Origin: Schmidtea polychroa
Lineage: Eukaryota
Direction of reading: 5' to 3'
Assembly (NCBI GenBank): GCA_044892525.1
Contig: CM097885.1
Span: 496,001 to 560,000 of the forward strand
Length of the DNA: 64,000 bases
Program-made: the position numbers and the translations under genes
Notes under the pieces: generated by a model
What the model was told of the DNA's origin: nothing
The model's database searches: none
The model's input: only the letters and a program-made list of their open reading frames with translations
Shown here: in pieces, positions 14,724 to 64,000 of the stretch
How positions within the stretch are numbered: position 1 is the stretch's first letter
How the letters are laid out: every line of letters starts with the position of its first letter

Positions 14724-14754
<31 letters not shown>

Positions 14755-32472: not shown

Positions 32473-32533
<61 letters not shown>

Positions 32534-36500: not shown

Positions 36501-36937
36501 TTATAGAAAACTTTATTATCCTTTTCTATATTTGAAAATTTTACATTATTAAAAGCGAAAATATCATTAATACCGCAATTTTGATTATTAATTACCGTTA
36601 TTTTAGCTTTCGGATAATTTTGAAATAATAAATATGGCATTTTCATGCTTTTCCTTGTCATCGGGCGAGATTTTTTTCCAATCGGCCAGTGTGATTCCAT
36701 CAAGTCCTGGAGCAGTGTTTTGGAGTACTGAGAAGATTTATTATTTAGGATCTTCGTTATCTCCCTTACTACAAGGGACTTGGGATGTAGACCAGTCGTC
36801 CACCGTAAACACTACTTTAACCACTGGAACAATCATGTGAGTCATATCAAATGTCTTAAGTGAATAAGGAAGTTTGGAATTAGAGTCGAACGAACGAACT
36901 ATATAGTCGCGAAGTCCAGCTAAGTGCTCATTTATTT

Positions 36938-38887: not shown

Positions 38888-39757
38888 TATTAAAAAAAAA
38901 AAAAAAAAAAAAAATCAAATTTTATTTTAATCAATTGACGGCACTTGGCCAAGAAGGGGAGAACTTCTCACCCTTAGAGTTCTGTAGCTTTTAATTCAAT
39001 GACCGATGGATACCAGAGTTATAAACTCAGGTATCAGAACGTGGGTTTCCAAATGGGTTGGAGTATTTGGAGTAATAGGAGCAGTTGGAGTAGTTGGAGT
39101 AATTGGAGCAGTTGGAGTAATTGTAGCAATTGGAGTAATTGTAGCAGTTGGAGCAATTGTAGCAGTTGGAGTAATTGGAGCAGTTGGGGTTGGAAATCGT
39201 CATTTAGTTGGGAGAAAGATGGTGTCAGATTTATGGATTCTGCAATAGTGGTAACATTATCGTGGTAGAGTTTTGGGAAGTCATCATCGTAGGAGTTTTC
39301 AGTAGTTTAAAGATTTGGTGCAAGTGTTCAGAATTTAGAGGTTTGGATTGGTCTTGATAGGTGGAGGTGATCGATATTGCAAGATTATTGATGTTGGTGT
39401 ATATTTCACTGTTTGGATTGATTGTAGTAGTTGGCGTGAATGGAGCAGTTGGAGCAAATAGAGCGGTTGGAGTAAATGGAGCAGTTGGAGTAAATGGAGC
39501 AGTTGGGGAGTTGGTTGAATTAGAGAGTTTAGATATTTATATAGTTGATTAATAATAGTTAATAATATAGATAATAACCATAAAACACAAATAGAATAGG
39601 ATAATGCTCTGAGTACATATTATATACGAAATATCTGGAATTCAAGATTGGTTTAATAAGAGACAAAGAAAATTGTAAAAGGGTGATATATAGTAACCAT
39701 AGAATACATATAAATAAAAGATGCTTTGGCTACAAAAAGATAGATATATAAGTATAA

Positions 39758-43599: not shown

Positions 43600-43965
43600 T
43601 TATCCAGTGACTGATTCATTTTTCTCAGATAAAATTTGTTCTGTAATCGGGAAATTCAAGGATGAGAATAAAGGAAATCAATATAAAGAATGGGTGTTTC
43701 TTCGACCCAAGTGCTACTCACTCCAAGGCGATAAAACACTCTAAAAGCCAAAGGAATAAGACTTACAAATTCTAATATCACCCATGAAGCTTATAAAAAA
43801 AGTGTATACTGATGGTGGAACAGTGAGCATCCCAAAAAAAAATAGGAAGTGTCAATCATCAGTTGTATACTTTCATGACAGAAAAATGAGCTCTCCAATG
43901 TTTGGACGATAAAAGGTATTGGTACAATTGTAATGAAAGCTATGCCTACGGTCACTATAAGATTC
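43600..43965 (+). pseudogene. C-terminal pPolB fragment with frameshifts
   Basis: Manual translation: VIGKFKDENKGNQYKEWVFLRPKCYS / LKAKGI / CLDDKRYWYNCNESYAYGHYKI. Confidence 0.85.
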
Positions 43966-45076
43966 GTCACATGCATATTGCAACTTCTATGTCTAGAAAT
44001 GAATGCAAATCGAAACAAGGACTTTAACAATTAAATTTATGTGAATAATAAAATATATATTGTGAATTATTTGACTTCGTTAATTAAAATATGTTTTATC
44101 ATTTAATAATTCATTTGTCCAATTAATTTAGATAATTAGTTTTAAGTAAGAATTATTATTTATCATGAAAAACTTTGCTTTGTTTTGAAAAATTAATGCC
44201 CATTTTATTTTAAATAAACACAGCTTTATTAGTAGTGTGGTTATATACCCAACCAAAACAGCCCTCCCAACAAAACATGCCTCCAAATCACTTAAGCTAT
44301 TAGAAAAACAACCTAAAACTTTTACTTTTATAGTATTTTAACCCTATATTTTGAAAACAACCACCCTTAATGACTCTAACTGTTTTAATCTTTAAAGCCT
44401 CAAACTCAAAAGCATCAAACTAAAAAGAGAATAGAAAAGAAAATGGCATTATGAAAAAGTTAGAGGGCTATTTGATCTTTATCAGATTATTGATTTTAAA
44501 TTATATAAATTAAAAAATAAATGAAAAATAGTAAAACTGCTCTGAGGGGACAGTGGTATTTTTTTTTTTTTTCACTGTCCCCTCAACAGTTTTTTTTGAT
44601 CCGGTTCATTTTTTTTATTTATCAACCTCTTTCGTTTATCGAATCTCTTCCAATATACAAGCTGGCCAGACTCATACATCAGAATCAATCCGATAATAGC
44701 AGCACACCTTATTATTCGCTTCTCGCTCGAATACGATTTCATCGGCGTTTTAAGTGTGCTGCTCGAAAGTACAAATGAATTCGAAAGCGAATTCGAAAGA
44801 GGTCCGAAAACAACTGAGAAATAAATGTGCACATTAAAGAATCGATCCGGGGGTGTTCGAAAGACAGGTGGCGATAATTACCGGTTCGCCACCATCACCC
44901 GTTTCAATATTTTTTTTTTCATATTTATGTTTAAAAAATAATTAATTAATAAAAAAATAAAATAAAATAAAATAAATAAAATAAAATATACAAGTACTTT
45001 ATAAATATAAGATACCCACACTATTTTCAATATTATTTTCAAATTTTTAATATTATTTTATGTTGAAAAAAAAACT

Positions 45077-45149
45077 AACCTCAGATGTGATTTGAACCGC
45101 TAGCATTTTGAACCACTGTGTCAGTCTAGCCCACTGCGCCATCAAGGTT
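45077..45149 (-). ncRNA. tRNA-like RNA polymerase III unit (73 nt)
   Basis: Minus strand: AACCTTGA-TGGCGCAGTGG (A box)...GGTTCAAATC (B box)...TGAGGTT-AG-T9. The ends pair, but the D and T stems are imperfect. Confidence 0.6.
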
Positions 45150-45253
45150 TGGATTTTTTGTCATTTTTTAAATTTTTATTATAAAAAATGAATAATATAA
45201 ATCTTAAAAAATAAAATGAAAACAGGGTATCCAATAAAAATTTTTTTCTAAAA

Positions 45254-45886
45254 ATGAATTGTAATATTTGCAATAAAGTTTTTAAAAATAAAACTGGATT
45301 AATTTCTCACTTAAAATCGAAAGCTCATTTATTAAAAGAAAATAATTTTAATGATACAAATTCAAAACTTTGTCTTAAATGTAAAGGAAGATTTCTACAT
45401 TCTGGATATAATAAACATTTTGAAAATTGTATCGGGAAAAATAGAGAAATATTTACATGTCCTCATTGTAACTTTTCAACAAAACTAAATTTCTATTATT
45501 TAGAACATATAAAAGAATGTAAAAATAAAAAACAAAATTCTGACGATGAGGAATGTCATTCAGAAGGAGAGCCTGATCATGTTGAAAGAGAAAAATATAA
45601 CTGGGATAATTTTAATCATATAGATGAATTTCAATTAAAAATTAATGGGCCTGCAACTCCTGGAGAATATATAAATAAAAATAAAAAAAATATTAAAAAT
45701 TCTTTCACTGATTCTTTAAAAAATTATAAGCCGACAAGGTATAATGTTATAAAATATAAAATTATAATCAAAGCAAAATACTGGCGAGGAGCAGAAGAAA
45801 AGACAACACCCTTAGATGTTGAAATGGAATACCTTTTAAATATTTATTTTCAATTAAAGGATTTGATAAAACCATCAAAGAAATAA
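45254..45886 (+). CDS. Zinc-finger protein; probable N-terminal part of pPolB
   Basis: CNICNKVF...HLKSKAH, CLKC...HFENC, CPHC...HIKEC. Overlaps the open pPolB frame from 45823. Confidence 0.8.
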   Translation: MNCNICNKVFKNKTGLISHLKSKAHLLKENNFNDTNSKLCLKCKGRFLHSGYNKHFENCIGKNREIFTCPHCNFSTKLNFYYLEHIKECKNKKQNSDDEECHSEGEPDHVEREKYNWDNFNHIDEFQLKINGPATPGEYINKNKKNIKNSFTDSLKNYKPTRYNVIKYKIIIKAKYWRGAEEKTTPLDVEMEYLLNIYFQLKDLIKPSKK

Positions 45887-48800
45887 TTAAAGCAGCAGAA
45901 GCAAAACAAGAGGAAGTAGAAAATGAATTAGGAGATTCAAACTTAGTATTCAACTCTTTCCAAACTTTAGTGATTGATTATTGGAGAGGATTACCACCCA
46001 ATCCTAAATCTTATATTTCTACACCCTTTAAATCTAAAAATGTTATAAATGTACAGAATAATGATAACAAATGTTTCATCTGGTCAATACTTGCACATTT
46101 ACATCCTCAAGCAACAAATCCCCAAAGAGTTTCAAAATACAAACAATATGAAAATGAATTAATATTTCCCAAAGGATTCAAACACCCAATGAAACTAGAA
46201 GACATTCCAGAATTTGAAAAATTAAATAATCTTAAACTTAATATTTATGAACATGTTATAGGGAAAGAAATTATTCCAATTTATATTTCAGATAGTGGAA
46301 CCAAGGATAACGGAGCACAGGACAATGAGATATATCTTTTAATCTTGGAACAAGAAAATAATCAACATTATGTTTTAATAAAAAACTTTCAAGCTTTTAG
46401 ATCTCCAGAGAATCCAACTAGTGGAGGAGGAACATGTAAAAGATGTCTTCATTATTCAACAACTAAAAACTCTATGATTAAACATACAAGATTTTGTGAA
46501 AAAGATGATCCAGCTTTAATTAAAATGCCTAATAATCCCAAGATGTATTTTAAAAACTTTTCAAATTTACTACAAACAGTTGGAGTTCTTTATGGTGACT
46601 TTGAATCTATAAACCATAAACAAGATTTGGTTTATCAATATTTAAAAATAATAGAAAAAAATAAACTCATGGATTTATGGAACTCCTCAGGAGAGAAGAT
46701 GAAACCAGAGAGGATGAAAGCCTTTCTAAGAAAAAGAAATAAACCTAATAGTGTTAAAAAAACTAAACAATTATCATCTGCTTATAAATTATTATTTAAA
46801 AGTAATTATCCTGAACTCATAGAATCTAGAGAATATTCAATTCTAGGAGGTACCCCTGAAGAAGTCTTGAATCATTTTACTAAAAATATAAATGATCTAG
46901 AACATGAAATATTTAAAATATTAAAAACAAAGTATCCTCAAAATATTTCTAATCAACAACAACAAGAATATGAAAATACTTCCAACTGTTGGATGTGTAA
47001 ACAGAATATTCTTCCTGATGAAAAAGTTATAGATCATGATCATTTAAAAAAGGAAAATAATTATCGAGGAGCAGCTCATAAAAATTGCAATCTTAATTGC
47101 CATACTCCTAAATTTATACCTGTTATATTTCATAATCTTTTTGGATATGACATACATCTATTTATTAAACACCTCGCAGCAAATGCTAAAAACTCTTTCA
47201 AAGTTATCGGCTTAACAAAGGAAAAATATAAATCAATTGAATATGGAAAATTAAAATTTATAGACTCGTTAAACTTTCTCCAAATGTCTTTAGATGCAGT
47301 AGCAAAAACAATGAAAGCAGAAAATTTTAAAATCACTGGAGAATTCTTGGAAAAAAATAATATTCCTCTAGAAGAATATCCTACATGTTTAGCAAAAGGA
47401 ATATATCCTTATGACTATGTTGACTCGTTTGAAAGATATAATGAAACAAGTCTTCCTAGCCAAGAAGATTTCTATTCACAACTTCAAAAAAATCATATTA
47501 CAAATCAAGAATATTCTCGAGCAAATAAAATGTGGGAATTATTCAAGTGTAAAACTTTAGGAGAATATACAAGTATGTATTTATCCTTGGATGTTTATAT
47601 TCTAGCAGATTGCTTTGAAGAATTTACAAAATCTTTTGTTCTTAAACCCTATAATTATATAACTGCACCCTCTTTAGCTTGGGATACTATGTTATATACC
47701 ATTTGGACTTCAAATATAGAAGATGCTGATAAAATTATAGATCTTTTAACTAACCTCGATATGTTTAACCAAATTAAAACAAACATTAGAGGAGGAGTCT
47801 CTTCAGTAATGGGGAATAGAGAAATAAAAGCTAGAAATGCAATAACTACTAGCCGAAGACTATCTAAACACCCTGATGATCCATATATGAAAATTAACAA
47901 TGAGGAATTAAAAGAATTATTAGAAACAATGAAAAATCCTATATTTATACTTTATATAGATGCAACAGCTTTATATTCAGGAATTATGACTCAATATTTA
48001 CCAATGAGTGATTTCACTGAAATAGAGAACCCAACAGATGACCTTATGAAAGAAATACTTTCAACATCGAAAGATTCTCCAATAGGTTACTTTATAGAAT
48101 GTGACCTCGACTATCCAGATGATATAAAATCAGGAACAAGATATTTTCCTTTAGTTCCCATAAGAAGAAAGATTGATATCAACGAACTTCCTGAATGGCA
48201 AATCTCACAAGATAAACCTCCAACAATGAAACTTCTTTGTGATCAAACAGATCGAAGGTTTTATCTTTGTCACTATAGACTCCTCCAATTTTATCTCTCA
48301 CGAGGAATGATATTAAAAAAAGTTCATAGTGTCATAAGATTTAAACAAGCTCCATTCATGAAAGCTTTTATCGAGGAGAACATTAGGTGTCGAAACATTG
48401 CAAAAAGAGAAGGTAACCTTTTTAAAGATAATAATTATAAACTTTTAAACAATTCAGTCTTTGGGAAAACAATGGAGAATGTTGATAAATATACTCATAT
48501 TGAACTCCTAACAAATACTACCAAAGATATTAAGCGTTATAATCGCATGCTAGGAAAGCCTACATTTAAAAACGCACAAGTATTTTCTGAAAATCATACT
48601 GCAGTAGAATTAAAAAATTATGAGAAAACATATAACAAACCAATATTTATAGGGTTTACAATTTTAGAACTTTCAAAATTACAAATGTATGAAACATATT
48701 ATAACATCTTACAACCTATATACGGAGCAAATATATCAATGCATGCAATGGATACAGATTCAATGTTTTTAACAATAAGAACTCATGATTTACAAAAAGA

Positions 48801-49563
48801 TATGAAAGAAAATCCTATACTTTCAAATTTAATAAATTCATCTGGAGAACTATTTTCGTTTAAAGATGAAAAACCTTTTACTCCTATAGAAAATGGAATA
48901 TTTATTCGTGCTAAACAATATTCATACGAAACATTTAGAAACCCTGAATTTATAACTAGATCATTTATATTTAAAACTCCAGAAACAGAAGAAACCATTA
49001 CACATAGATATCCTATATTTCCTAAAGGACCAGAGGGACAAGAAGAAAAACCTGTAAAGGATAACAGATGTAAAGGAATACAGAGAGTGGTGGCAAAGAA
49101 TCTTTCTCATCAAGATTATATAGATACATTGAATCCAAATCATAAAGATAAAATTGATGAAATACATCAACTTAAAAGTGAAAACCATGATATTCACTTG
49201 ATAGAATCTCAAAAAGTATCATTATCAAATTATGATGATAAGAGATTCATACTAAGTGATTTAAAGACAACTCTACCTATTGGAAATAATTTAATTCCTA
49301 TAATAAAAAATCTAGAAAAGTTGAATAAGTTATATGATACAAAGATTACTGATCTTGATATTTATAATGTTGAAATTATTTATCCCGAGAGAGAAATCGA
49401 GAAACCTTTATATTCTCAAGTTTTTAATCCTATATGTTTAGAACTTAAATATTTTAATACTGATCCTGAATATATAAAAGGTCTAAGTGATAAAGAATTT
49501 AAAGATCATAAATTAATGATTCATAGGTTGGCTTTAACCATAACTGAAACCAACGATATTTAA
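45823..49563 (+). CDS. polB: Protein-primed family B DNA polymerase (pPolB) with endonuclease VII-like insert
   Basis: DNKCFIWSILA; ExoI YGDFES; CWMC...DHDH...RGAAH..CN; ExoII FHNLFGYD; KGIYPYDY; ExoIII YLSLDV; YIDATALY; KLLNNSVFGKT; MDTDS; YDDKR. The frame is open from 45823 and the track start at 45970 is GTG. Confidence 0.97.
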   Translation, partial: NGIPFKYLFSIKGFDKTIKEIIKAAEAKQEEVENELGDSNLVFNSFQTLVIDYWRGLPPNPKSYISTPFKSKNVINVQNNDNKCFIWSILAHLHPQATNPQRVSKYKQYENELIFPKGFKHPMKLEDIPEFEKLNNLKLNIYEHVIGKEIIPIYISDSGTKDNGAQDNEIYLLILEQENNQHYVLIKNFQAFRSPENPTSGGGTCKRCLHYSTTKNSMIKHTRFCEKDDPALIKMPNNPKMYFKNFSNLLQTVGVLYGDFESINHKQDLVYQYLKIIEKNKLMDLWNSSGEKMKPERMKAFLRKRNKPNSVKKTKQLSSAYKLLFKSNYPELIESREYSILGGTPEEVLNHFTKNINDLEHEIFKILKTKYPQNISNQQQQEYENTSNCWMCKQNILPDEKVIDHDHLKKENNYRGAAHKNCNLNCHTPKFIPVIFHNLFGYDIHLFIKHLAANAKNSFKVIGLTKEKYKSIEYGKLKFIDSLNFLQMSLDAVAKTMKAENFKITGEFLEKNNIPLEEYPTCLAKGIYPYDYVDSFERYNETSLPSQEDFYSQLQKNHITNQEYSRANKMWELFKCKTLGEYTSMYLSLDVYILADCFEEFTKSFVLKPYNYITAPSLAWDTMLYTIWTSNIEDADKIIDLLTNLDMFNQIKTNIRGGVSSVMGNREIKARNAITTSRRLSKHPDDPYMKINNEELKELLETMKNPIFILYIDATALYSGIMTQYLPMSDFTEIENPTDDLMKEILSTSKDSPIGYFIECDLDYPDDIKSGTRYFPLVPIRRKIDINELPEWQISQDKPPTMKLLCDQTDRRFYLCHYRLLQFYLSRGMILKKVHSVIRFKQAPFMKAFIEENIRCRNIAKREGNLFKDNNYKLLNNSVFGKTMENVDKYTHIELLTNTTKDIKRYNRMLGKPTFKNAQVFSENHTAVELKNYEKTYNKPIFIGFTILELSKLQMYETYYNILQPIYGANISMHAMDTDSMFLTIRTHDLQKDMKENPILSNLINSSGELFSFKDEKPFTPIENGIFIRAKQYSYETFRNPEFITRSFIFKTPETEETITHRYPIFPKGPEGQEEKPVKDNRCKGIQRVVAKNLSHQDYIDTLNPNHKDKIDEIHQLKSENHDIHLIESQKVSLSNYDDKRFILSDLKTTLPIGNNLIPIIKNLEKLNKLYDTKITDLDIYNVEIIYPEREIEKPLYSQVFNPICLELKYFNTDPEYIKGLSDKEFKDHKLMIHRLALTITETNDI

Positions 49564-49641
49564 TTTTTTAATAATAAAATGTCGACAATTAATTTAAGCA
49601 ACTATAGCAACCTGATCTACTTTTTTAAAAATACACCCATT

Positions 49642-50202
49642 TTATAAGTAAGAATTCTTTAACCATTTTTCTCGAGATGTTTTTTTATTACTTATAACAT
49701 TAGCCACCATGCCCTCCCTTTTTAATCTTATAACCTCATTCTTTATATCTTGTATTATTTGATTTGATTTCATTATTTCTTCGTCTGTCAGGATTCCATC
49801 TTCCAAAGCTTTTAATTGAAATAAAAATAATTTAGAGATTCCTAATTCTATTGATAAACAAACTTCTCTATATAAACTTTTCTTTTTAGAAGTATAAGAT
49901 AATGAAACTATTTCAGTTAAGAAACCATCAGCCACAGAAATACTTCCAAGTATTACAGGTGCAAGAGTAACAACTGGTAAAGTTATGGGTAAAATAACTG
50001 TTAATATTGCAGATGCAAATCCTAAAGAATAACCTATAACTTTTAAAACTGTATTCCCTTTATTCCATCTATTTTTAATTTTTTTATAATGCTTTAATAA
50101 ATCTTGTAAATGTAAGGTTTCTGATTTAAATTCTTTTACTCTCATAATTTCAAGTTCTGTGGGAGCCGAGGCCTTGGAAGAATAATATCCTGATGATCTC
50201 AA
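49642..50202 (-). CDS. Polinton/adintovirus conserved membrane-associated protein (GasderminX-like)
   Basis: Hydrophobic hairpin VIGYSLGFASAILTVILPITLPVVTLAPVILG and C-terminal ALEDGILTDEE. Track start is TTG; the frame extends upstream without an ATG. Confidence 0.65.
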   Translation of the reverse strand: MRSSGYYSSKASAPTELEIMRVKEFKSETLHLQDLLKHYKKIKNRWNKGNTVLKVIGYSLGFASAILTVILPITLPVVTLAPVILGSISVADGFLTEIVSLSYTSKKKSLYREVCLSIELGISKLFLFQLKALEDGILTDEEIMKSNQIIQDIKNEVIRLKREGMVANVISNKKTSREKWLKNSYL

Positions 50203-50246
50203 TTCTGGGTAAATTTTTTCTTCTCTTACTTCTTCCTTTTTAATAT

Positions 50247-51257
50247 TTAAAAAAATAAGACTTTATTCTTCTGAGCACCATCTGGCACCAATACTCGGAT
50301 ATCAAAAGAAACTCTTGTTGAGAGGATATCTTTATACAATTCTCTCAATGCTTTACGAACTTCATCAACATCAACCTTTTTTTCATAAAATATTAAATCT
50401 ATATATTGTACAAGTGAACTAGAAAAATGAATATTCTTACTTTTAACTTTATGTAGTCCATGTGAATGAGTATTAACATACCAATCTCCGTGTGGTAAAT
50501 CATAACTAGTCATTATAACATCACCCTTTTCAAGCTTACTATTATAATCACATTTCACAAACCATTTCATTCTTTCATTATCATCATCAAACAAAAAGAA
50601 ATAAGGATCAATAATTTTTACAACCATAAAAACACCCCATTCTTTACTGTTTGTTGTTATTAAACTTGGTTCTATAAAATGTTTATATGTATGGGGTAAT
50701 AATGTTTTATTCTGTTCTAATTCAGCAGCTCTTTTTCTAATACTATGTGTGGTGTTAATGTGTGTTCCATGAGACTCTAAATTTGAAATTCTTTTATTAA
50801 ATGATGTAATCATCTCATTTATTATTTTATATATTGTATTAAATTTAGTATTCATAATTTGTTTATCTTTAGAATTTAATATAGCAGTATTTAATTTTAC
50901 AACTTGTTCAGTTAACAGACTTTGTAACTTGTCAAATTTATCATTAAATCGTTGTTCGATATTATTAAGCTTTGATTCCATTGAATCAATGTTTGTTGTT
51001 AATGAACTTTCAATTCTTGTTGTTGTTAAATCAGTAAAATTTTTAACACCATCAACATATTTTTTATTAACTGCATCAGCTTCATCAGTTGGTAAAGATA
51101 AATCTTTTATCTTGTGTCCATTTAAATTTAAATCTCCTTTCATTGAATCACCTCTTTCATTAATATATTTATTTTCTGTTAAAGTTAATATTTCTTCTGT
51201 ATTAAACCCTGTTTTTATTGTTCTACCACCTCTATTACATGGAATATAAGAACTCAT
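50247..51257 (-). CDS. Putative virion fibre-like protein
   Basis: GDSMKGDLNLNGHKIKDL..PTDEADAVNKKYVD fibre-type repeat, coiled coil, unique C-terminal head; adjacent to penton. Confidence 0.65.
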   Translation of the reverse strand: MSSYIPCNRGGRTIKTGFNTEEILTLTENKYINERGDSMKGDLNLNGHKIKDLSLPTDEADAVNKKYVDGVKNFTDLTTTRIESSLTTNIDSMESKLNNIEQRFNDKFDKLQSLLTEQVVKLNTAILNSKDKQIMNTKFNTIYKIINEMITSFNKRISNLESHGTHINTTHSIRKRAAELEQNKTLLPHTYKHFIEPSLITTNSKEWGVFMVVKIIDPYFFLFDDDNERMKWFVKCDYNSKLEKGDVIMTSYDLPHGDWYVNTHSHGLHKVKSKNIHFSSSLVQYIDLIFYEKKVDVDEVRKALRELYKDILSTRVSFDIRVLVPDGAQKNKVLFF

Positions 51258-51281
51258 TTATTAATAATTTAAAATGAATCT

Positions 51282-52046
51282 TCAAACCTGTTTCAAATGT
51301 AAATACATTGAAATCTCTTCTCCATTAAAATCAATCAATTCTCCTTCTTGATTAAGAATTTTAAAATTAATATCCATTATATATTTTCTACATAAAGGTA
51401 AATAATTTGGAGGATTCATTCTTTCAACTATTTTATATCCCATAGGAACTGTGTTTGAGGGAAAGGAATATAAAACATTTGTTTGTTTACCATTATTATA
51501 AAAACCTGTTATACAATCGCAATGAATATTTATTGTGTTTGTATTTATTATTTTTATAATATTTTCTGATGTTATTATTTTATCTTCTTTTATTGTTATA
51601 TCCATAGGTTTAAATCCTAAAACTGTGTGAAAGAAACAATTATCTAAAAAACTAATTTTTAAATTCTTCAAAGTCATTACACATTTTGAAGTTGGTATAT
51701 CCATTTTAATTTTAATACCTTCATTTGTTTTTTTAGAAAGTATATCATTTAAATCTTTTATCTCATATGCCCCAGGTTCTATTGTTATAATTTCTGGTTT
51801 ATGCCCATCACGAGTTTGAATAGTAAATTTATTATTATCTTTAGTTATATTAAAAATAGTATTATAAGCACAAAACCATAATAGCCCCAATTCATAATTT
51901 AAATTTTGATCTAATTTAATTGAATCTTGAAAGTTTATAGTAAAGTCTGATTCTTTTGAATTTATAGATAAAGTTCTTGAATATTTATCTGACATTATGT
52001 TTACCATTTTTTTTAAATTATCTTCCGGAGGCTTGTGAAGCTCCAT
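51282..52046 (-). CDS. Minor capsid protein (penton, single jelly roll)
   Basis: DFTINF...YELGL...YNTIFNI...NNKF...PGAYEI.DLN...INIHCD.I.G.Y.NG...IDFNGE pattern typical of Polinton pentons. Confidence 0.85.
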   Translation of the reverse strand: MELHKPPEDNLKKMVNIMSDKYSRTLSINSKESDFTINFQDSIKLDQNLNYELGLLWFCAYNTIFNITKDNNKFTIQTRDGHKPEIITIEPGAYEIKDLNDILSKKTNEGIKIKMDIPTSKCVMTLKNLKISFLDNCFFHTVLGFKPMDITIKEDKIITSENIIKIINTNTINIHCDCITGFYNNGKQTNVLYSFPSNTVPMGYKIVERMNPPNYLPLCRKYIMDINFKILNQEGELIDFNGEEISMYLHLKQV

Positions 52047-52094
52047 TTCTTTAGTAGTAAATTCATATAGTAAAAATCCTTATAGTAAAAATCC

Positions 52095-52559
52095 TTATAG
52101 TAGAGATTCTAGATCATTATAAATTTCTTGAATTATAGATTCAAAATCCTGCGTATGCCCCTTTCCCTCTTCCTTATTCAATCTATACAAAACATATAAA
52201 CTTAAAATACCACATATTTTAGTATTCAAAGGTTGAACTTGTAAAGAGTTAAAAGTATAACCATTTGGGGAATCAATCGGAGAACCCCTCAAGAGATAAT
52301 CTTCAACTTCTTTAGTAGGTTTAATCCCAAAAGAATCAAAGTAGATAGATTTCTTATATATACAAACCCAATGAGATCCTTTTTCATTTGAATTTTGATA
52401 ATTGATTATTATATTCAGGGGACTCTCCAGACTTGATAATTCATCATTCATTAATATTTTAATTTTTAAATTTAAATAATTTGCATAATCTTTTAAATCA
52501 AAATTTGTTTTTGCATTTATTCCAAATGTTTTTAAAAAATCTAATATTGAAGGAGTCAT
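52095..52559 (-). CDS. Adenain-like cysteine protease (capsid maturation)
   Basis: GSHWVC, YFDSFG, Q...ICG: His/Asp/Gln/Cys all intact. Confidence 0.92.
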   Translation of the reverse strand: MTPSILDFLKTFGINAKTNFDLKDYANYLNLKIKILMNDELSSLESPLNIIINYQNSNEKGSHWVCIYKKSIYFDSFGIKPTKEVEDYLLRGSPIDSPNGYTFNSLQVQPLNTKICGILSLYVLYRLNKEEGKGHTQDFESIIQEIYNDLESLL

Positions 52560-52581
52560 TTTGTATTTTAAAACTTCGTAT

Positions 52582-53320
52582 TTATAACTTCGTATACTTA
52601 TTAAATTTATCTTTTGAAATTATTCCTTGTTTTAACAAATCTTTAGAAATCTTTAAAATATCAGAATCTAAATTATTATGTCCTGCTTTCCTTGCAGCTA
52701 ATAGTTTTCTTAATTCAATAAAAAGATTGATGGGATTTGGTTTACCACCTTCACTAATTAATCCCTCTCCCTCTGTAACAACATAACCCTTTTCATTTTT
52801 ATTTAAATAATTCTTTAAATCTTGAATATATTTTGCTTTAGAACTAGCTCTTATTAATCTTATTAAATTTAAATATTTTTTAATTTCTTCAACATCATCT
52901 GAAGAATATCCACAAAGTAATCTATAAAAATCATCTGTAAATTCAAAGTCTAAATATTCATTATTATAAACATTTTGTGAATGAATACGTGATTTATTTT
53001 CTGAATTTGAATATAAAGTAAAGTTTTGTTTATTAATTGTTATTATTTGATATCCTTCAGTATTAGTATTAAATGTGGGTCTAATTGAAGGAGGTAAATC
53101 ATCTCTAATTTTAGGATCAACTTTAAGAGGTTTTGTTTTTAAAAACATTTCTTCTTCTTCCACATTAGAAATTCTTCTGCGTTTTCTTTGATTTCTTTCA
53201 GGATGGTTTTCACTGGATTCTTTTTCTTTATCCTGCCACTCTAGTTCTTTTATTTTTTGTTTTTTATCTTCTAACTCTTTAAATTTTGCTTGCTCATTGA
53301 AATCTTCCAAATCTTCCAAA
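52582..53320 (-). CDS. Conserved Polinton hypothetical protein, 5'-truncated
   Basis: C-terminal GEGL...NPINLFIELRKLLAARKAGHNN...LLKQGII pattern. The track start (TTG at 53328) lies in the duplication junction. Confidence 0.7.
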
Positions 53321-56300
53321 TTTTTCAATTCTTAATTACTGACTATTATTCCAACTTTTTGTTAATAAATTTAAAAATCTTACTTTAATTTTCTTATTAC
53401 TTTAATTAAAAAATTTGAAACTTAATTTACTTATTTCAGCCCATTGATTACCAAATATATCTATTAATTTACTTTAATTCAAAAATCTTAGCCCATAATT
53501 TACTATATTTCAATTTTTAGACCCTTAATTTACTGTAATTCAATTTTTGAACCATCATTTACTTTAATTTTAAATTTAAGAACCATAATTTACTTTAGTT
53601 TAAAAATTTGAACCTTTATTAACTAATAAAAGTTAAATTATCATTTTCAATTAATATTTTACAAACATAAAATTACAATATTTGAAATTCTAAATATCTC
53701 TATTAACATGTTTGCAATTAATTTTAAAAATACAAAAATTTTACAAAATTTTCAAATTGAATATTATATATTTTTTTAATTTGCATTTGATAATGTTTAT
53801 TCTTAATAAGATTTTCCCATGAGAAAATTCATATTTGTTTAAATGCAAAACTTTAAATTTAATTCTATAAAAAAAAATTATTTTTCAAGACGTCTAAAAG
53901 CTCTAGGACAAGAAGAAAATACAGTTTAGAAAGGTAGTGAATGAATTTCCTAATGAATTACAGAAGGGTATAGGACAAAGTTCCAGTTCTCTATTCTCAA
54001 TTTATCATCAATCAGCAGCAACATTGACAAAGTTTATCTTAAACAAGCTGCAAATTTATATATAAAATTACATAAAAATTGTTGATAAATTGTTAAAGTT
54101 TTAATAATATATTTCGAATAATAAAAATTTCCCTTGATAAAATTCTGAATATGAAATAAATATTAAAAATTATATTAAAATTTAAAACTGTAAAAATTTT
54201 AAATTTTATTTATAAATTTCATTTTTAAATTGTTTTATTAATCAATTTATTAGAAAATAATCTTAATGAAGCATTTTAAGTATTATTTTAGTTTTAACTA
54301 ATTTTTCTAAATTTTATTTAAATTTATTTTTGTAGTCGTTTATGATATGGAGGCCTTTAAGCAGTTAGTCTTAGTTAACGTAGCTCTCTTTGCTGGAAAT
54401 AATACAAATTACCTTTTACCTTGACTGCATTGATGGAGGTGCTACTCGTCATGAACCTACCTCATGCAGTTATCCATTTGTATGCCGAATGTCCTTTACC
54501 GTCAAACTTCCTGTGGCTTCGTCATAATCGTTCTTATTGGTCTAACAATGTACCGCACTACGTCGATCCCTCTTATAAGGTTTCTGAATTTCAACATTTT
54601 GCTCTTATCATAGCCCATTTTTGACTGCTTTGGTGACAACATTAGAGTGCCTTCTTTTATTTTTTACCTTTTTAGGATCTGACCTTCACAGTGGATACAT
54701 AAAGATTTTCAGCAAAAGCCTCAGCGATATGTCCTTGTAATTTCATTTATTTCCATTTTCAGCGTAGATTAGACTAGTAATGTCGTGTAATTCTGAACAC
54801 TTCTCATGCTTTCTTTCTTTATTTTCAATTTCTAGTTTATTATTTACATCCATCATTTTTATTTTTATTCAGATATTGCATTTATTATTTCTATGTAGAT
54901 AGTTTAATACCTAAATCGGTATTCCTTACTAAATCGAAAGGTTTAAGCGGTCCTTACACATGCATCATACTGATCCCAGTTGGTGTATAAAATAAACTGC
55001 ATTGATGAAGGTTCGAACCTTCATCGTTTTCTCTCTTGCAGTCAGTCATTTGTGTGGACCTTGTATTTCTTTGTCTTTTTTGCCAGATCCTCTATCTCAG
55101 TGGTAGATAATCCTTAGTATTGTGTATATTTACTTTACCAATTTACTTTTACCAACTGTGCTTTAACAGCTTCGTACTCGGCCAGTGAGCTTATCCTTTC
55201 ATCCCTGCACTCTTCAATTCGCCTATCACGCTTCGCAAATAGAACCTCTGCTACTTGTTTGAATTCTTTCTGTGCATTCGAACCCCAACGGCAACTACTT
55301 ACTCTTGCCGCTAGTATCTTTTTAAGTGTCCTAGTTAAAACTGAGCACGCTCTTCCTCTATTTTTGAAGGCTTTCTTAAATCGGCATCCAAGCTAGTTCG
55401 CTGGTCATGTTTTCGGTTATTGGGAGTCATTTCCCAATATTTTTGATTTCAAGCTTTGGCTGGGTGCTTTGTTTTGCCTGTGTTTTAATAGAATGGGAAT
55501 AGGTACCTTTTCTCGGAGAGATGCTTTTTCAGGAATGGTGATGTTGAAGTGATGGACTCCTTCTCCTGGTAGTATTCCTCACTATATCTGCTTATGTTTT
55601 TGATGTAGCTTCTTTTGCATTCATTCTGTTTTCGTCTAAGTACCTAATGATATAGATAAATATTGGAACTGGGGCATAATTTATTCATAATCCGAAGGCT
55701 TCAATGGTTATACGTCAGCTGCCTCCTGGCTTCTCTGATAAAGTTCTCTTTTTCTCCTTGGAATTGCCGCCTATTTCTGCGCAGTGCTAGGAATCTTATA
55801 TTGGAGTGATTCTCCGAAGCACTGGTAAACGGCGGGAGTTATATTGTAACGATTGTTTTTGGAATATTGCATGTAATATTTTTACGGAAAAGAGGTGCTA
55901 GGAAGTGATTCTCCTAAGCGCTGGGAAACGGCGGGAGTAATCTGGTAATAATTTGAGTTTCTGAATAACATTAAAGAAATATTTTCACGGTAAAAAAGGG
56001 GACCTCCATCCGGCATTGGATCATCCTCCTGCAGCAGAATTATCTTTTTCATTTTCCTTAACTTTTAATTTTTCTATTTCTTTAAGCTTTTTATAGAAAA
56101 CTTTATTATCCTTTTCTATATTTGAAAATTTTACATTATTAAAAGCGAAAATATCATTAATACCGCAATTTTGATTATTAATTACCGTTATTTTAGCTTT
56201 CGGATAATTTTGAAATAATAAATATGGCATTTTCATGCTTTTCCTTGTCATCGGGCGAGATTTTTTTCCAATCGGCCAGTGTGATTCCATCAAGTCCTGG

Positions 56301-59300
56301 AGCAGTGTTTTGGAGTACTGAGAAGATTTATTATTTAGGATCTTCGTTATCTCCCTTACTACAAGGGACTTGGGATGTAGACCAGTCGTCCACCGTAAAC
56401 ACTACTTTAACCACTGGAACAATCATGTGAGTCATATCAAATGTCTTAAGTGAATAAGGAAGTTTGGAATTAGAGTCGAACGAACGAACTATATAGTCGC
56501 GAAGTCCAGCTAAGTGCTCATTTATTTTTAATCCATTGGCGTCTCTTGTAGGAACAACGGTTTATTCCATTTTGCCAATTGTGACCTGACCGCTTCGTTC
56601 TCGGCCAATAAGCTTATCCTCTCATCCCTGCACTCATCAATACGTCTAAGCCTATCACGCTTCGCAAATAGTACCTCTGCCAACAGGGCTGGCACACCCA
56701 GCCCCCCATTTTTAATTTTACTATTTATAAATGATGAACAAGTATCGGTTGGCAGGTGTAACCATTTGCGAACCGCGCCTCTAGTCATTTTATCCAATAC
56801 CCCTAGTTCGGTGGTATCGGTTTCCCCCAGCATAGCCTCATGTAAGATACCTGGTATCAAAAAGTCACTAAGCACCTCTAACTTTTGTTGCGGCTTAATA
56901 GGTGCCCTCGTAATATACTCAAGACGTTTAGTATAAAGATTGGATAGCTTTTTAGTAGTGCGACCAAAGGCTCCAAATTGGATCCCCAAATACTTATAGT
57001 AGTAGTCAGCTGACAAGGCATGGAACTCTTCCCCATCAGCACTTACCTTTTCGTTAGTAACCATCCATTTTTTCTGCTTGCCGTCCCATCGCGCTATAAT
57101 GGAGGCACTCTTACTTGGATTAACACTAAGGCCATTAGAAGCCAATTCATTTAAAACCGTTGTTAACAGGTGTTCTAACCCCGCTTTGGTTTCACTAACT
57201 ATTACTAAGTCGTCGGCATACGCCAAAATGGGATAGGTTATTCCCCCCAACTTATAGCCAATACCAGTTTCAAATGCTTTCTGGATGGCGAGATCGATTA
57301 CATTGTTGAACAGCGTGGGTGAAAGCGGGTCGCCCTGTTTCACCCCCCTGTTAAACTTTGCCCCAATGCCATCGACCGTAGTTGTAGCATTGTTATAGCT
57401 CTCTTTAACCAACCTTAAAAGCAATTCGGGATAACCCGCTAGTTTCGCCGCTCTCATGATACTATCATGATTCACAGAATCGAAGGCCTTTTTCATATCG
57501 ACAAAGGCAATTGCTACATTCCTAAATTTAGTTCGCGCATCAGAAAGGATGCAATCCAGCAAAGTGGTGTTTTCAAGGCACCCATCCACTGGCTTAAACC
57601 CCTTCTGTGCATTCGAACCCCAGCGACAACTACTTACTCTTGCCTCCAAGATCTTATTAAGTGTCCTAGTTAACACTGAGTTAACGGAAATAGGCCTATA
57701 GTCCCCTGGACTTTTGGGGTTTTCAACTTTTGGGATTAATGAGGTTCGTGCTGTCTTTAATACTGGGGGTAAATGTCCTAGAGCTAATATAAGATTAAAC
57801 AACTTGAAGAGCGCAGCATGCGGTATAGTTATCAAGGCCTTCGCGCTAATGCCTTCAGGACCACTAGCCGTTTTCAATTTCATCTTTTGCACAGCAGCTG
57901 CGATCTCCTCTAATGAGATATGTGCAGCTACTGTGTGCAGCTCCATGCCCATCCCCTTCCTCTTGTCTTCTAACTCTTTAAACACTGCTTTATATTAAAA
58001 AAAAAAAAAAAAAAAAAAAATCAAATTTTATTTTAATCAATTGACGGCACTTGGCCAAGAAGGGGAGAACTTCTCACCCTTAGAGTTCTGTAGCTTTTAA
58101 TTCAATGACCGATGGATACCAGAGTTATAAACTCAGGTATCAGAACGTGGGTTTCCAAATGGGTTGGAGTAATTGGAGTATTTGGAGTAATAGGAGCAGT
58201 TGGAGTAATTGGAGCAGTTGGAGTAATTGTAGCAATTGGAGTAATTGTAGCAGTTGGAGCAATTGTAGCAGTTGGAGTAATTGGAGCAGTTGGAGTTGGA
58301 AATCGTCATTTATTTGGGAGAAAGATGGTGTCAGATTTATGGATTCTGCAATATTGGTAACATTATCGTGGTAGAGTTTTGGGAAGTCATCATCGTAGGA
58401 GTTTTCAGTAGTTTAAAGATTTGGTGCAAGTGTTCAGAATTTAGAGGTTTGGATTGGTCTTGATAGGTGGAGGTGATCGATATTGCAAGATTATTGATGT
58501 TGGTGTATATTTCACTGTTTGGATTGATTGTAGTAGTTGGCGTGAATGGAGCAGTTGGAGCAAATAGAGCGGTTGTAGTAAATGGAGCAGTTGGAGCAGT
58601 TGGAGTAAATGGAGCAGTTGGGGAGTTGGTTGAATTAGAGAGTTTAGATATTTATATAGTTGATTAATAATAGTTAATAATATAGATAATAACCATAAAA
58701 CACAAATAGAATAGGATAATGCTCTGAGTACATATTATATACGAAATATCTGGAATTCAAGATTGGTTTAATAAGAGACAAAGAAAATTGTAAAAGGGTG
58801 ATATATAATAACCATAGAATACAAATAAATAAAAGATGCTTTGGCTACAAAAAGATAGATATATAAGTATAATTAATTTTTATATATATGTTGACGATAT
58901 ATTTGGTAGCTGCTATTGATTGCAGCTACACATGCTATTTTGGCTAGCTCCTTTATTTCATTATTGGATAGGCCAATAATTTTAAGTATCGAGTCATTAT
59001 TTTTGTCCCATGAGCCAAGGGTGCCAACTACGAGGGCATGTAGAGTGTATGGGCATTTATGGAGTCTACCAATTTCCTCTCCTAGTTCCTTATATTTATT
59101 ATAGTTTTTTCTCCTAGAGTTGTCGTAGTTTTCTCTGTTACGCTTAGACTTTAGAAGAAGATCGGGCTTAAGGGTGGAGTTGGTACCTTCAGGTATTTTC
59201 TCTATGTCTACTTCATAGTTAACAGATATAAGGAAGTTTGCCACAGTTTCTAGGACATTATCATGCTTATTTCGTCTTGCATTAATACGTGCTTGGCAAT

Positions 59301-60120
59301 GATTGAAGATGTGTGCAGGTGTTTCCGGGTGGGCATGGCAGTGCCGGCAGAGTATAGATTTATTAGTCTTTAGGCGGTGTGGTGAGTAGTTCAGTTTTAG
59401 AAGGTTGTTGCGTGCGCGAATAAGAAAAAGGAATTGGGCATCAGGAAGGATGTCACTTTTAAAGAAATAGTCGGCAATGTTGCTTTCGCTAATTGCCTTT
59501 GCCATATAGCCCTGGCATTTCATCGCACACCAACGTTCAGCATGGATAAGGCCAATAATGGAGTGCAGTTCAGCTGACGTTCTATCCACATTACCCAGGG
59601 AGAAGTAATTGATACGACTCTTATATTTTATTTCAAGCTGTAGAAGATCCTCAAGCATTATGATTTTCGTAGATATACCGTATTTAAGAAGCAGACGTCA
59701 GGCCAATTTTTTAAATTTCGAGAAGATGGAGAATGTTGGGTAGGTTTTAGAGAGTTGGCCATTCAGCCAGGACAGTGCAACATTTAAATCTCCTTGTCCT
59801 CTAGCCTCGATAAGTTCGGCAGTAATGAGAGTCTTAAAGTTAAGATCGCTAGAATTTAATGCCCTAATAAGCTGTACAATGCTTTGAATAAGGTATTCTT
59901 CAATGGAAGATACAAGTCCAAGTCCTCCAAGCTTGCAAGCTGCATATAAGAAGTTGTCATTCAGTTGCATTATCTTATCTCCGATGGATCTTTTAATACC
60001 CTGTTTAATTTGCAGGTCAAATCCATATTGTTGTATTTCAGAGTTACGAAGGATGTTGCGGGGAGAGTCTAGAATGTTATGGTTTATAACACAGTTTCTA
60101 AAGGTAAAGTTCAAGCGAGA
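53318..60120. repeat. Partial unit U3 (copy of ~23492-30294)
   Basis: Offset ~29827. Shares the R2 deletion and the end junction with U1. Confidence 0.97.
56528..57992 (-). pseudogene. R2-like RT, U3 copy (485-aa open frame)
   Basis: Same motifs and internal deletion as U1, without the U1 frameshift. Confidence 0.93.
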
Positions 60121-60122
60121 GT
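58873..60122 (-). pseudogene. NeSL/Utopia-like 3' fragment, U3 copy with a premature stop at 59698-59700
   Basis: CGA>TGA relative to U1/U2. Confidence 0.9.
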
Positions 60123-62298
60123 TTACGCAAAAATTTGCAAATTATTATTATTTTACAAATTTTATTTACTAAAAAATAAAAATTTACTAAATTAAAAATA
60201 TTAACATTTACTTATTTAAAATTAAAAAACCAATCAATAAAAATGCATCCAATTATCAAGAAATTAATTAAATTTATCTTAGAACTAACTTAAAATTTTT
60301 AAATATTCATTCTGTCCACATGAAATTCATGAAAATGATAAAAATTCACAAAAACCATCAACTCTAAAAAAAAAATTACTAAGGAATACCTTAAACACAA
60401 ATATTTATCTAAATAATCTTTCAAATTAATTCATTAAAATTGAAGACAACACGCTCTATTTCGTCATTACATTCAATTAAAATTAAATAAATCAAGATAA
60501 GAACTTTGATAAAAAATATTATTCTAAAATGGTAAGAATTAACACTGTAGTGTTAAATGAAAAGGTAATTATTCTTTAAATCTAATTATAATTATAATCA
60601 TAATTTTCTTTAATTTAACCGTTTATTTACTTAATTTAGTCCTTGTTTACCGAATATAGAAGTTTAAAATATAGACCATTGATTACTTTAATTTAAAAAT
60701 GTATCCCTTAATTTAAATAATTTCCATCTAAAATTATTTCAAAAAAATTTTTTTTCTAAAATTGTCATTGAAAAATATTTCATAAAAATTTTCATTAAAA
60801 ATTATCTTAAAAATTATTCCATAAAAATTTCCATCTAAAATTACTTAAAAAATTATTTCATAAAAATTTTCATTAAAAAATTTCAATTCTCAAACACCTT
60901 CTATTATTTTGTTAATAAATTTAAAATCTTACTTTAATTTGCTTATTACATTACTTATTTAAAAATTATTACTTTAATTTACTTATTTAAAATATTTGAC
61001 CATTGATTACTTAATTTAAAAATTAGGACCTTTATTAACTTTAATTTAATTTTTTAGAACCTTAATTTACTTTAATTTTAAATTTTGACCTTTAATTAAC
61101 TTTAATTCAAAATTTGGACCTTAATTTACTTTAATTGAAAATTTTAGACCTTAATTTACTTAATTGAAATTTTAGACCTTAATTTACTTAAGTTTAAAAA
61201 TATATACCATAATTTACTTTACTTTTAAATTTTAGACCATAATTTACTTAATTGAAAATTTTAGACCTAATTTAATTTAAATGAAAATTTTAGACCTTAA
61301 TTTACTTAATTGAAATTTTAGACCTTAATTTACTTAAGTTTAAAAATATATACCATAATTTACTGTAATTGAAAAATTCGAGCGACTAATTTATTGGTTA
61401 ACTTTGCAGTCATTTAAAGCAAAAATTAATTTATTCATCTAATGTTCGTTACAATAGTTAATAATATGAGAAAAATATGGTCATTATTCATTGATAATTT
61501 TAAATTCTTTATCATTTGGAGTAAATTTGTTTGAGGCAAAAATAATTAAAAGAGTCATAATAGAAATATGGTTATCATTTAACCAATTAATGGGCTTATT
61601 AGTTAGAAATATATATATTATAAAGTAACAATTATTTTCTAATTTAATTAGTAGATCATTAGACGTAATATATCTTTGCGAGAAATTTAAAATGTTTGAG
61701 TAACCAAAACATGGATATTTTGTGCGATAAATTTATGAATATTGGTTGATTTTGTTATTTTTAGTCATTTAAAATAATATTTAGCAAAGGTAATTTAGCA
61801 AAATATCCACCCGATAACAATATTCCTTCAATAGATTAACTGATATTCAACCTATTTAATTTCTGGAAATATAATTAAAATCATAAATTTCCTTCAATAA
61901 AGTTAAATCAAAAACGCAAGAGACGATCAAGCAAATCAAGAATTAAAAAATAAACACATTGCAGAAACAGAATTTATATAAAGTCAAACCCTGACTCCTC
62001 CAACAGATTCAAGTCTAAATAAAATTCAATCAAAAGCAATAACACTGGTAAGTAGGACTCCAACCCACTTTCAAGGTCATGAAATATGTCCAGATCAAAT
62101 ATAGGTCAATTGAATCATTTATTTTTAAATTAACATTTTCTTTATTTACTTCTTTTTAATTTTTTCTTTTTAATTATATTAATTAATTATTTTATTTTGT
62201 TTTATTTTAATTACTTACTTTAGTTAATTTTTAATTTATTACATTAATTAATTTCTTAGTTTATTAATATTTTATTTTAATTACTTACGCTATTTAAA

Positions 62299-62362
<64 letters not shown>

Positions 62363-64000
62363 TATTTTATTTATTTCTTTATTTTTTCTTAAATTTTACA
62401 TTCATTATATTCTAACAAGAGAGTTAATTATAACAATAATATTTCAATTTGTATAAAATTTTAATTAGTAATTATTCAATTTGAATAAAATATTTATTAG
62501 AAATTATTTAATTTATTATAAAATAAAACGCTGTGTTAATTTTAAATAAACTGGATATTAATTTTTTGGAAAAAATAAATAAATAAAATAGTCTAAAAGG
62601 TTAAATTATGGTCTAAAATTTAAAATTTAAAAATTGAAAATTGAAAATTAATATCTAAACTAATCAAACTAAATCAAACGCTATAACCTTAATTCAAGAA
62701 TTCACTAAAGTAGATCAGAAGATATTAATTATCAAAATGTAACAAAGACTCTGAAATTCATCAAATTTATCTAATGACCTGGTGATATTCAATACCATTC
62801 TCAAGAATGCTAAAGTCGGGAATTCTTTGAATTTAACAAATAAATAAAAAATTAAATAAAAAATTATTGTTGATTATAGTTTATCATTAATTATTTTTTT
62901 GTTAGGGGTTGTAAAGAAAATACTTTGTCAACACAAGATTTTTAAACTTATTAACAAAAAGTTGGAATAATAGTCAGTAATTGAGAATTGAAATTTTTTA
63001 ATGAAAATCTTTAATAGAAATGTTTTAAGATAATTTTTAATGATAATAAAAAGAAAGAACCTTATTTAATGCTATATCCTCTATAGCACTTAAAAAACTC
63101 TCGACGCAATCTAAACCTATGAACTGTTGATAAGATTTAGATCCATCAAAGTTATTTACAAGTAAAAGACCAGAAGATATTGGCATGTGTCGTTTGAAAT
63201 GAACATTATCAGAAGGTAAAATAGCCTCAAAATCGGCATCAACTACAAAAGGAGGAGTTACTGTTTTCGACCAGTCAGTAAACTGTAATAATTTATTTTG
63301 AGGGAAGGTGTAAATAGTTGTTCCTAACTGATTTTTTATGTGTTTAGTTAATGTTTATATGTTTTGTTATGTGTCTAGTTATTTTTATGTGTTTAGTTAA
63401 TTTTTATGTGTTGTATAGTATTTGGTTGAAATAATAATATTATTATTAATCTATAAAAAAAAATTTCATTAAAAAAATTTACTTAAAAAATTAATCCACT
63501 AAAATTTTCGTTGAAAATTATCTTAAAAAATTTTTATTAAAGATTTTCATTAAAAAATTTTTCAATTCTTAATTACTGACTATTATTCCAACTTTTTGTT
63601 AATAAATTTAAAAATCTTACTTTAATTTTCTTATTACTTTAATTAAAAAATTTGAAACTTAATTTACTTATTTCAGCCCATTGATTACCAAATATATCTA
63701 TTAATTTACTTTAATTCAAAAATCTTAGCCCATAATTTACTATATTTCAATTTTTAGACCCTTAATTTACTGTAATTCAATTTTTGAACCATCATTTACT
63801 TTAATTTTAAATTTAAGAACCATAATTTACTTTAGTTTAAAAATTTGAACCTTTATTAACTAATAAAAGTTAAATTATCATTTTCAATTAATATTTTACA
63901 AACATAAAATTACAATATTTGAAATTCTAAATATCTCTATTAACATGTTTGCAATTAATTTTAAAAATACAAAAATTTTACAAAATTTTCAAATTGAATA
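60121..64000. repeat. Unit U4 (start), runs off the window; includes a pPolB ExoI fragment at ~63060-63335
   Basis: Offset ~29826 to U2. Shares with U2 the short deletion at AAAATAT^CCACCCG. Confidence 0.97.

What the first reader, a model, noticed from the sequence alone, without database searches (positions are those of the whole stretch)
44231..53320. Largely intact left half of a Polinton/adintovirus-like endogenous virus
Seen: long uninterrupted ORFs with intact pPolB and protease catalytic motifs, amid otherwise decayed DNA. Known: Polintons also encode a double-jelly-roll major capsid, an FtsK/A32 ATPase and an RVE integrase; none is in this window. Inference: a young, possibly virion-forming element whose other half was separated by the duplication breakpoint.
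Basis: partly seen in the sequence, partly recalled or inferred. Interest (0 to 1): 0.8.

Follow-up and report, generated by a model that had tools for sequence, protein, structure and literature searches.

The report
Truncated copy of young, abundant Polinton
This is a broken-off duplicate of one copy of a virus-like jumping element of a well-known kind; the copy itself is defective, but its family is very young, very numerous and still keeps its capsid genes in good order.

Summary
Confirmed as a Polinton/Maverick (adintovirus-type) left end, but not intact and not an orphan. Window 44231-53310 is the first 9.1 kb of a ~15-kb element: 940-bp TIR, pPolB with an OTU-like domain, penton (fold match), adenain protease (profile match) and three unassigned ORFs. 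Its pPolB is split by a frameshift private to this insertion. The same insertion, with both TIRs, TSD TTTATT on both sides, and ATPase, PLA2-integrase and double-jelly-roll capsid genes, lies 32.1 kb downstream; the window piece is the upstream product of a ~30-kb tandem duplication that broke inside the element. That neighbour is defective too. The family matters more than this copy: 920 exact termini, 1,037 polymerase motifs and 1,695 ATPase motifs in a 781-Mb genome; 98 of 98 scored capsid hits are open. Capsid and ATPase show dN/dS about 0.13-0.15 between subfamilies. Each TIR carries a Pol III-type A-box/B-box unit; the scan noted similar units in Polintons of other genomes. Virions, transcription and read support for the junction were not shown. 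New member of a known kind.

The parts
44225..44230 (+). 6-bp target-site duplication TTTATT (left copy)
   Evidence: Same 6 bp flank both ends of the downstream twin at G000:C1:572358-589416; another insertion shows its own 6-bp TSD, AATTTG
44231..45172 (+). Left terminal inverted repeat, about 940 bp, starting AGTAGT
   Evidence: Matches right ends in L023, L024, L026 in reverse at 94.6-99.3%; 920 exact terminal 24-mers in the genome, 0 in control
45066..45152 (-). Pol III-type unit inside the TIR: A box (45141-45131), B box (to 45089), T run; points outward, away from pPolB
   Evidence: Only match in the window; 0 of 2000 TIR shuffles; 2,967 genome matches, 0 in control; boxes conserved in 15 aligned units. 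Box consensus is recalled. No tRNA or Rfam call; folding z 0.34; transcription untested
45254..45886 (+). C2H2 zinc-finger N-terminal part of pPolB, cut off from the rest by a frameshift near 45,820
   Evidence: Pfam zf-met E 1.4e-6; same domain begins the single sibling pPolB frame; the window's allele occurs 3 times in the genome, all in this insertion and its twin
45823..49563 (+). Main pPolB frame, 1,246 codons: OTU-like domain, HNH/endonuclease VII-like insert (about 47030), Exo I-III, Pol A-C
   Evidence: OTU-like fold: best VIA match OTUD1 Z 7.9, rmsd 3.0, 105 aligned, Foldseek E 0.034, Cys84/His182 invariant in 24 homologues; 4 of 24 homologues carry PF02945
49642..50238 (-). 198-aa ORF with a central hydrophobic stretch; probable membrane-active accessory virion protein (inference)
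   Evidence: Hydropathy peak residues 64-102; Atlas look-alikes score 0.93, unnamed, low recognition value; dN/dS 0.20-0.35
50247..51257 (-). 336-aa ORF, fibre/spike candidate: phage tail-fibre-like motif, coiled coil, lineage-specific C-terminus
   Evidence: PHROG 2710 tail fibre E 8.4e-8 over residues 35-94; only 2 homologues at similar length; not folded
51282..52046 (-). Penton (minor capsid protein, single jelly roll), 254 aa
   Evidence: AlphaFold model pLDDT 84.9; Foldseek mavirus penton E 1.5e-11; VIA Z 12.7, rmsd 5.9, 223 aligned
52095..52559 (-). Adenain-type cysteine protease, 154 aa
   Evidence: Profile of 93 homologues hits adenovirus proteinase 1avp E 1e-9; 34 of 93 members match Peptidase_C5, the window protein alone does not; triad conserved
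52582..53310 (-). 3' part of a 293-aa ORF of unknown function; its start is lost at the breakpoint
   Evidence: Full-length in siblings; no Pfam hit
53300..53328 (+). Duplication junction: element ends at 53310, short local tandem repeat, then repeat DNA from 53318; the joined sites share 9 of 11 bases
   Evidence: only this place matches across the junction among 43 listed matches
53318..64000 (+). Start of the second unit of the tandem duplication (copy of 23491-34173), running on to the twin element outside the window
   Evidence: 99.7% over 10,686 bp; window 34000-41539 and 43600-44230 recur at G000:C1:564030-571569 and 571727-572357 at 100%

Best explanation
A member of a recently expanded Polinton/Maverick family inserted by its RVE integrase into another repeat, making a 6-bp TSD (shown). 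It then acquired a frameshift in pPolB (shown: private to this insertion and its twin). Later a ~30-kb segment starting near window 23491 and ending 9.08 kb inside the element was duplicated in tandem (arrangement shown), probably by a replication template switch or end joining at short similar sequences (inferred). The upstream unit ends in this truncated left part; the downstream unit keeps both ends. This copy cannot replicate or excise itself. The family works as Polintons are thought to: pPolB copies a linear genome from its TIR ends, integrase inserts it, and MCP, penton, ATPase and protease can package it (established model for the class; activity here inferred from open frames and purifying selection).
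For: Sibling copies 98-99% identical, all starting at the same base with different flanks. TIR pairs about 15 kb apart. ATPase PF04665 E 4.1e-8, integrase rve E 9.4e-12 with PLA2-like domain E 3.9e-9, DJR capsid E 6.3e-26. Twin at +32,127 bp shares the left flank, is 99.9% identical and ends ACTACT then TTTATT. Frameshift allele seen 3 times, only in these copies. dN/dS between subfamilies: MCP 0.13 (P about 1e-9 to 1e-11), ATPase 0.13-0.15, protease 0.27-0.28, pPolB 0.20-0.36.
Against: No read-level check of the junction, in a region full of near-identical local duplications, so a mis-assembly is not excluded. Selection values rest on pairwise comparison with 5 hand-picked loci; penton is weaker (0.45-0.50 in two comparisons, 0.78 and 0.99 not significant in two); among near-identical copies pN/pS was 0.33-2.7. 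The ATPase Walker A ends in Asn instead of Ser/Thr in 100 of 100 listed of 1,695 matches. No relative was confirmed in the viral contig collection.
Confidence: 0.85

Rival explanations
1. The truncated copy is an assembly artefact: a false tandem duplication in a repeat-rich chromosome end.
For: Units are 99.7-100% identical; the twin has a further 2.4-kb internal duplication and there is an extra ~4-kb local repeat.
Against: The junction has a short local repeat and microhomeology, as expected of DNA repair; the units differ by about 8 substitutions or gaps in 11 kb and by about 1.9 kb of retrotransposon DNA.
Confidence: 0.12
2. The family spreads purely as an intracellular transposon; capsid genes look intact only because the burst is recent.
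For: Near-identical copies show weak selection; 5 of 16 top sibling loci already have broken pPolB; non-canonical Walker A; one of two extra loci lacks 2.5 kb of pPolB. No particle data.
Against: MCP and ATPase are the most constrained genes between subfamilies. PMC8097293 (passages) reads such constraint as evidence of virion formation.
Confidence: 0.35
3. The split pPolB is a programmed -1 ribosomal frameshift, so the gene is functional.
For: The two frames overlap by about 60 bases in the -1 relation, with a slippery-looking heptamer.
Against: 11 of 16 siblings have one frame; the window allele occurs only in this insertion and its twin.
Confidence: 0.02

Closest known systems
Polinton/Maverick elements (polintoviruses)
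   Same: AGTAGT...ACTACT ends, 6-bp TSD, TIRs, size within the 12.7-24.6 kb range of vertebrate Mavericks (PMC8097293 section 7); pPolB, RVE integrase, A32/FtsK ATPase, adenain, MCP and penton (PMC6431247 and PMC4028283 passages).
   Different: Copy number: 1,037 polymerase and 1,695 ATPase motifs against a vertebrate median of 8, maximum 287, and at most 38 intact; counting methods differ. Gene order differs from the vertebrate two-module plan. Walker A ends in Asn. Pol III-type unit in the TIR.
Adintoviruses, Alpha and Beta (PMC8502044 passages)
   Same: OTU-like domain in front of PolB, hexon, penton, adenain, FtsK, integrase, a PLA2-like domain and a pX-like small protein (Adeno_PX E 0.044, weak).
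   Different: PLA2 is fused to the integrase N-terminus instead of forming PLA2X with pX; pPolB has extra N-terminal C2H2 fingers. Alpha or Beta not resolved.
Nematode Polintons with exchanged pPolB (bioRxiv 10.1101/2023.08.22.554363 passages)
   Same: One sister locus (L032) shares the structural genes at 96% DNA identity but has a pPolB only 64.5% identical; HNH-like insert in pPolB.
   Different: The exchange here is between related polymerases, not across the 16%-identity pPolB1/pPolB2 divide; no fusogen was identified.
Planarian Maverick expansions
   Same: DNA/Maverick expansion reported in Dugesia (bioRxiv 10.64898/2025.12.11.693146 passages); Polintons are piRNA targets in Schmidtea (PMC8532177 passages).
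   Different: The passages seen give no gene-level or virion analysis. That this host is a flatworm is a lead from an earlier scan note, not tested here.

Membership tests
Polinton/Maverick | Protein-primed family B polymerase with Exo and Pol motifs | tested here: met
   PF03175 above cut-off; motifs; frameshifted in this copy, one frame in 11 of 16 siblings
Polinton/Maverick | RVE integrase | tested here: met
   Not in the window; rve E 9.4e-12 in sibling L023; split frames in the twin
Polinton/Maverick | TIRs ending (AGT)2//(ACT)2 and 6-bp TSD | tested here: met
   TSD checked at both ends for 2 of 2 insertions examined
Polinton/Maverick | A32/FtsK packaging ATPase | tested here: met
   PF04665 E 4.1e-8 and 2.7e-9 in siblings; Walker A ends in Asn
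Polinton/Maverick | Adenain-like protease | tested here: met
Polinton/Maverick | Double-jelly-roll MCP and single-jelly-roll penton | tested here: met
   MCP PF21738 E 6.3e-26 in sibling; penton fold in window
Adintovirus | OTU domain at the PolB N-terminus | tested here: met
   OTU domains fill the top of both fold searches, each score modest (Z 7.9; E 0.034); Cys and His invariant
Adintovirus Alpha or Beta | PolB class and matching accessory genes (PLA2X versus GasderminX/Cupiennin) | tested here: inconclusive
   Weak PF03175 score (48-49 bits); PLA2 present but fused to integrase; 198-aa ORF unassigned; no tree with named references was built
Active polintovirus | Virions or free linear genome | not testable with these tools
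   Only indirect: dN/dS, open MCP frames
Adenovirus VA RNA or tRNA gene | Match to RNA family model or cloverleaf | tested here: not met
   ARAGORN 0 genes; none of 8 Rfam matches reaches a gathering score and none is VA or tRNA
Type 2 Pol III gene | A box, B box, T-run terminator, and a transcript | tested here: inconclusive
   Boxes and T run present far above chance; transcript not testable

The most novel reading that the evidence does not exclude
The family is a polintovirus that still spreads through particles in this animal, has reached over a thousand near-identical copies, exchanges polymerase genes between subfamilies, and makes a short VA-like Pol III RNA from each TIR. It would then be an unusually favourable place to observe a Maverick virion; PMC8097293 (abstract listing) states such particles had not been observed.
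Probability: 0.2. Interest if true: 0.8.

Novelty: new member of a known kind. Interest (0 to 1): 0.36.

Why it matters
The window piece is an ordinary dead fragment. The family is a large, very recent Polinton burst (roughly 2-3% of the genome if most motif hits are full length; an estimate, not a measurement) whose capsid and packaging genes are under purifying selection. That makes the old question of whether integrated animal Mavericks form virions easier to test by observation. The TIR-borne Pol III-type unit and the PLA2-integrase fusion were not found described in my searches, but these were narrow and no supplements were read.

Tried and rejected
Programmed frameshift in pPolB: rejected. 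Orphan half-element: rejected, both ends exist 32 kb downstream. Locus G000:C1:1335921 as the lost right half: rejected, it is an inverted, truncated polymerase-side end, 99.1% identical. Single-sequence searches for penton in PDB, Pfam and PHROGs gave nothing; only the fold search did. The pPolB profile found no PDB sequence at E 0.01. TIR unit: no tRNA, no Rfam family, no unusual folding. IMG/VR scan with MCP: 1 stretch matched a pattern, none confirmed. Sequencing runs: 20 of 24 listed rows hold part of the element, no RNA holder listed; this says nothing on expression, and no reads were laid, so the junction lacks read support. Atlas gave no named family for the 198-aa or 336-aa ORF. No trimer model of the 336-aa ORF was obtained. 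In one search the pPolB row had a frame error and was redone. In one search L002 dropped out because it lacks the exact motif used; its frame is.

Full report
Observation. The element begins at 44231 with AGTAGT directly after TTTATT. A plus-strand polymerase frame runs 45823-49563 and faces five minus-strand ORFs of 198, 336, 254 and 154 aa plus a truncated one. From 53318 the window repeats its own 23491-34173 at 99.7%. The coordinates are essentially right, but the polymerase is split: the zinc-finger N-terminus (45254-45886) lies in another frame from the rest.

Gene identities. pPolB matches PF03175 (E 4.8e-13) and has all six Exo and Pol motifs. Its N-terminal 256 codons, folded with 23 homologues, match OTU domains at the top of both searches, with modest scores (Z 7.9, rmsd 3.0, 105 aligned; E 0.034). 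The 254-aa ORF had no sequence hit, but its model (pLDDT 84.9, 38 of 43 available sequences aligned) matches mavirus penton (E 1.5e-11; Z 12.7). The 154-aa ORF is an adenain: a profile of 93 sequences (the query and 92 of 150 listed hits) finds adenovirus proteinase at E 1e-9, with His, Asp, Gln and Cys conserved. The 336-aa ORF has a tail-fibre-like motif and may be a fibre; the 198-aa ORF has a membrane-like stretch. Both remain inferences.

The family. The genome search returned 22 matches, the long ones 98-99% identical, starting at the same base with different flanks. Siblings continue past the breakpoint into a 293-aa ORF, a pX-like basic protein, an A32-type ATPase, an integrase with an N-terminal PLA2-like domain and a double-jelly-roll MCP, and end in a ~940-bp inverted repeat. 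One sibling insertion has TSD AATTTG at both ends. Among the first 100 listed termini, 29 pairs lie 10-25 kb apart, median 14,940 bp, 23 of them 14-16 kb. Exact-match counts are 920 termini, 1,037 polymerase motif-C sites and 1,695 ATPase Walker A sites, each with 0 in the reversed control. All 98 scored MCP hits, the best of 3,263 candidates, are open and 99-100% identical; this is a top slice, not a proportion.

What happened at this locus. A right TIR followed by TTTATT occurs 4 times, one at G000:C1:589416. The left end with the same 200-bp flank recurs at C1:572358, 32,127 bp downstream. That twin is 99.9% identical, has TTTATT on both sides and carries the right-hand genes. The DNA upstream of the window copy recurs upstream of the twin at 100%. 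So a ~30-kb tandem duplication ended 9.08 kb inside the element. At the junction the element stops at 53310, a short local repeat follows, and the two joined sites share 9 of 11 bases, which fits template switching or end joining (inference). The frameshift allele occurs three times: here and twice in the twin, which has an internal 2.4-kb duplication. It therefore predates the duplication and is not a programmed shift; 11 of 16 sibling loci have one long frame and 5 are broken elsewhere (some of these loci duplicate one insertion). The twin also has split penton and integrase frames. No reads were laid, so mis-assembly keeps about 12%.

Is the family a virus? Pairwise comparison with five sister loci chosen by position (L027-L029, L031, L032) gives dN/dS 0.13 for MCP, 0.13-0.15 for ATPase, 0.27-0.28 for protease, 0.20-0.36 for pPolB and 0.45-0.50 for penton in the two most diverged pairs; two penton pairs and one integrase pair are not significant. 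Near-identical copies give 0.33-2.7, as expected when post-insertion decay dominates. PMC8097293 (passages) uses such selection as an argument for particles, with far lower values (about 0.001) from tree models. Against: the Walker A ends in Asn, no relative was confirmed among viral contigs, and there is no particle or RNA evidence. I put past or present particle use by the lineage at about 0.6 and present activity at about 0.2.

TIR unit. On the minus strand at 45141-45066 an A box, a B box and a T run follow in Pol III order (consensus recalled). The pattern is absent from 2000 TIR shuffles and 300 element shuffles and occurs 2,967 times in the genome. It is neither a tRNA nor an Rfam family and does not fold unusually. 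It may give a short RNA or only bind TFIIIC as a boundary. Earlier scan notes report similar units in this genome and two others; they are leads, not support. Two paper searches found no description (0 papers, 8 general listings, not read).

Comparison. All defining Polinton features are met at family level (PMC8097293 section 7 and passages; PMC4028283 and PMC6431247 passages). The adintovirus OTU feature is met; Alpha or Beta is unresolved (PMC8502044 passages; its supplementary gene maps were not seen and may already show a PLA2-integrase fusion). PLA2 and endonuclease VII-like domains are known in Mavericks (PMC3671162 and PMC5803895 passages). Maverick expansion in planarians is in print, as is piRNA control of Polintons there.

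Verdict. A real, correctly recognised Polinton left end, but a defective duplicate of a defective insertion. New member of a known kind. Interest 0.36, carried by the family's copy number, youth, constrained capsid genes and TIR unit, not by this copy.

Noticed in passing
window 45066-45152 (-) and both TIRs of siblings: Pol III-type A-box/B-box/T-run unit, 2,967 matches in the genome; tandemly doubled about 233 bp apart in L010, L015, L016, L017; variants are mosaic blocks.
   Followed up: partly
L023:1291-2700 (-): Integrase carries an N-terminal parvovirus-type PLA2-like domain (PF08398 E 3.9e-9); same frame length in L024, L027, L029.
   Followed up: partly
L007:1-771 (-) and family: ATPase Walker A reads GSSGCGKN; Asn in 100 of 100 listed of 1,695 matches.
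   Followed up: partly
L032:5354-9499 (-): Sister element with 96% identical structural genes but a pPolB only 64.5% identical, suggesting polymerase exchange.
   Followed up: partly
L031:4544-4909: Sister element with both TIR units but about 2.5 kb of pPolB missing; such copies may explain why ATPase motifs outnumber polymerase motifs.
   Followed up: partly
L030:3842-8501 (G000:C1 near 1,335,921): A polymerase-side end sits in inverted orientation at the same target site and flank as the twin's right end: either a flip through the TIRs or a second insertion at the same site.
   Followed up: partly
window 43600-44230: The host target is itself a young repeat end, found in inverted pairs 2.7-12 kb apart and in tandem arrays near the chromosome end.
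   Followed up: no
window 39758-41539 (-), 56528-57952 (-) and copies: Two non-LTR retrotransposon RT ORFs (RVT_1) inside a ~10.2-kb unit repeated at 20032, 30295 and 53318 onward; parts recur on small contigs at 96%.
   Followed up: no
window 1-3753 and 8328-15742: Long near-perfect inverted repeats (1,555 bp at 99.7%; about 2 kb at 98%) and short-period satellites.
   Followed up: no
L029, L028, L031 penton and 336-aa ORF: Penton and fibre candidate diverge much faster between subfamilies (64-82% aa identity) than MCP (97%), as expected of vertex or receptor-facing proteins.
   Followed up: partly
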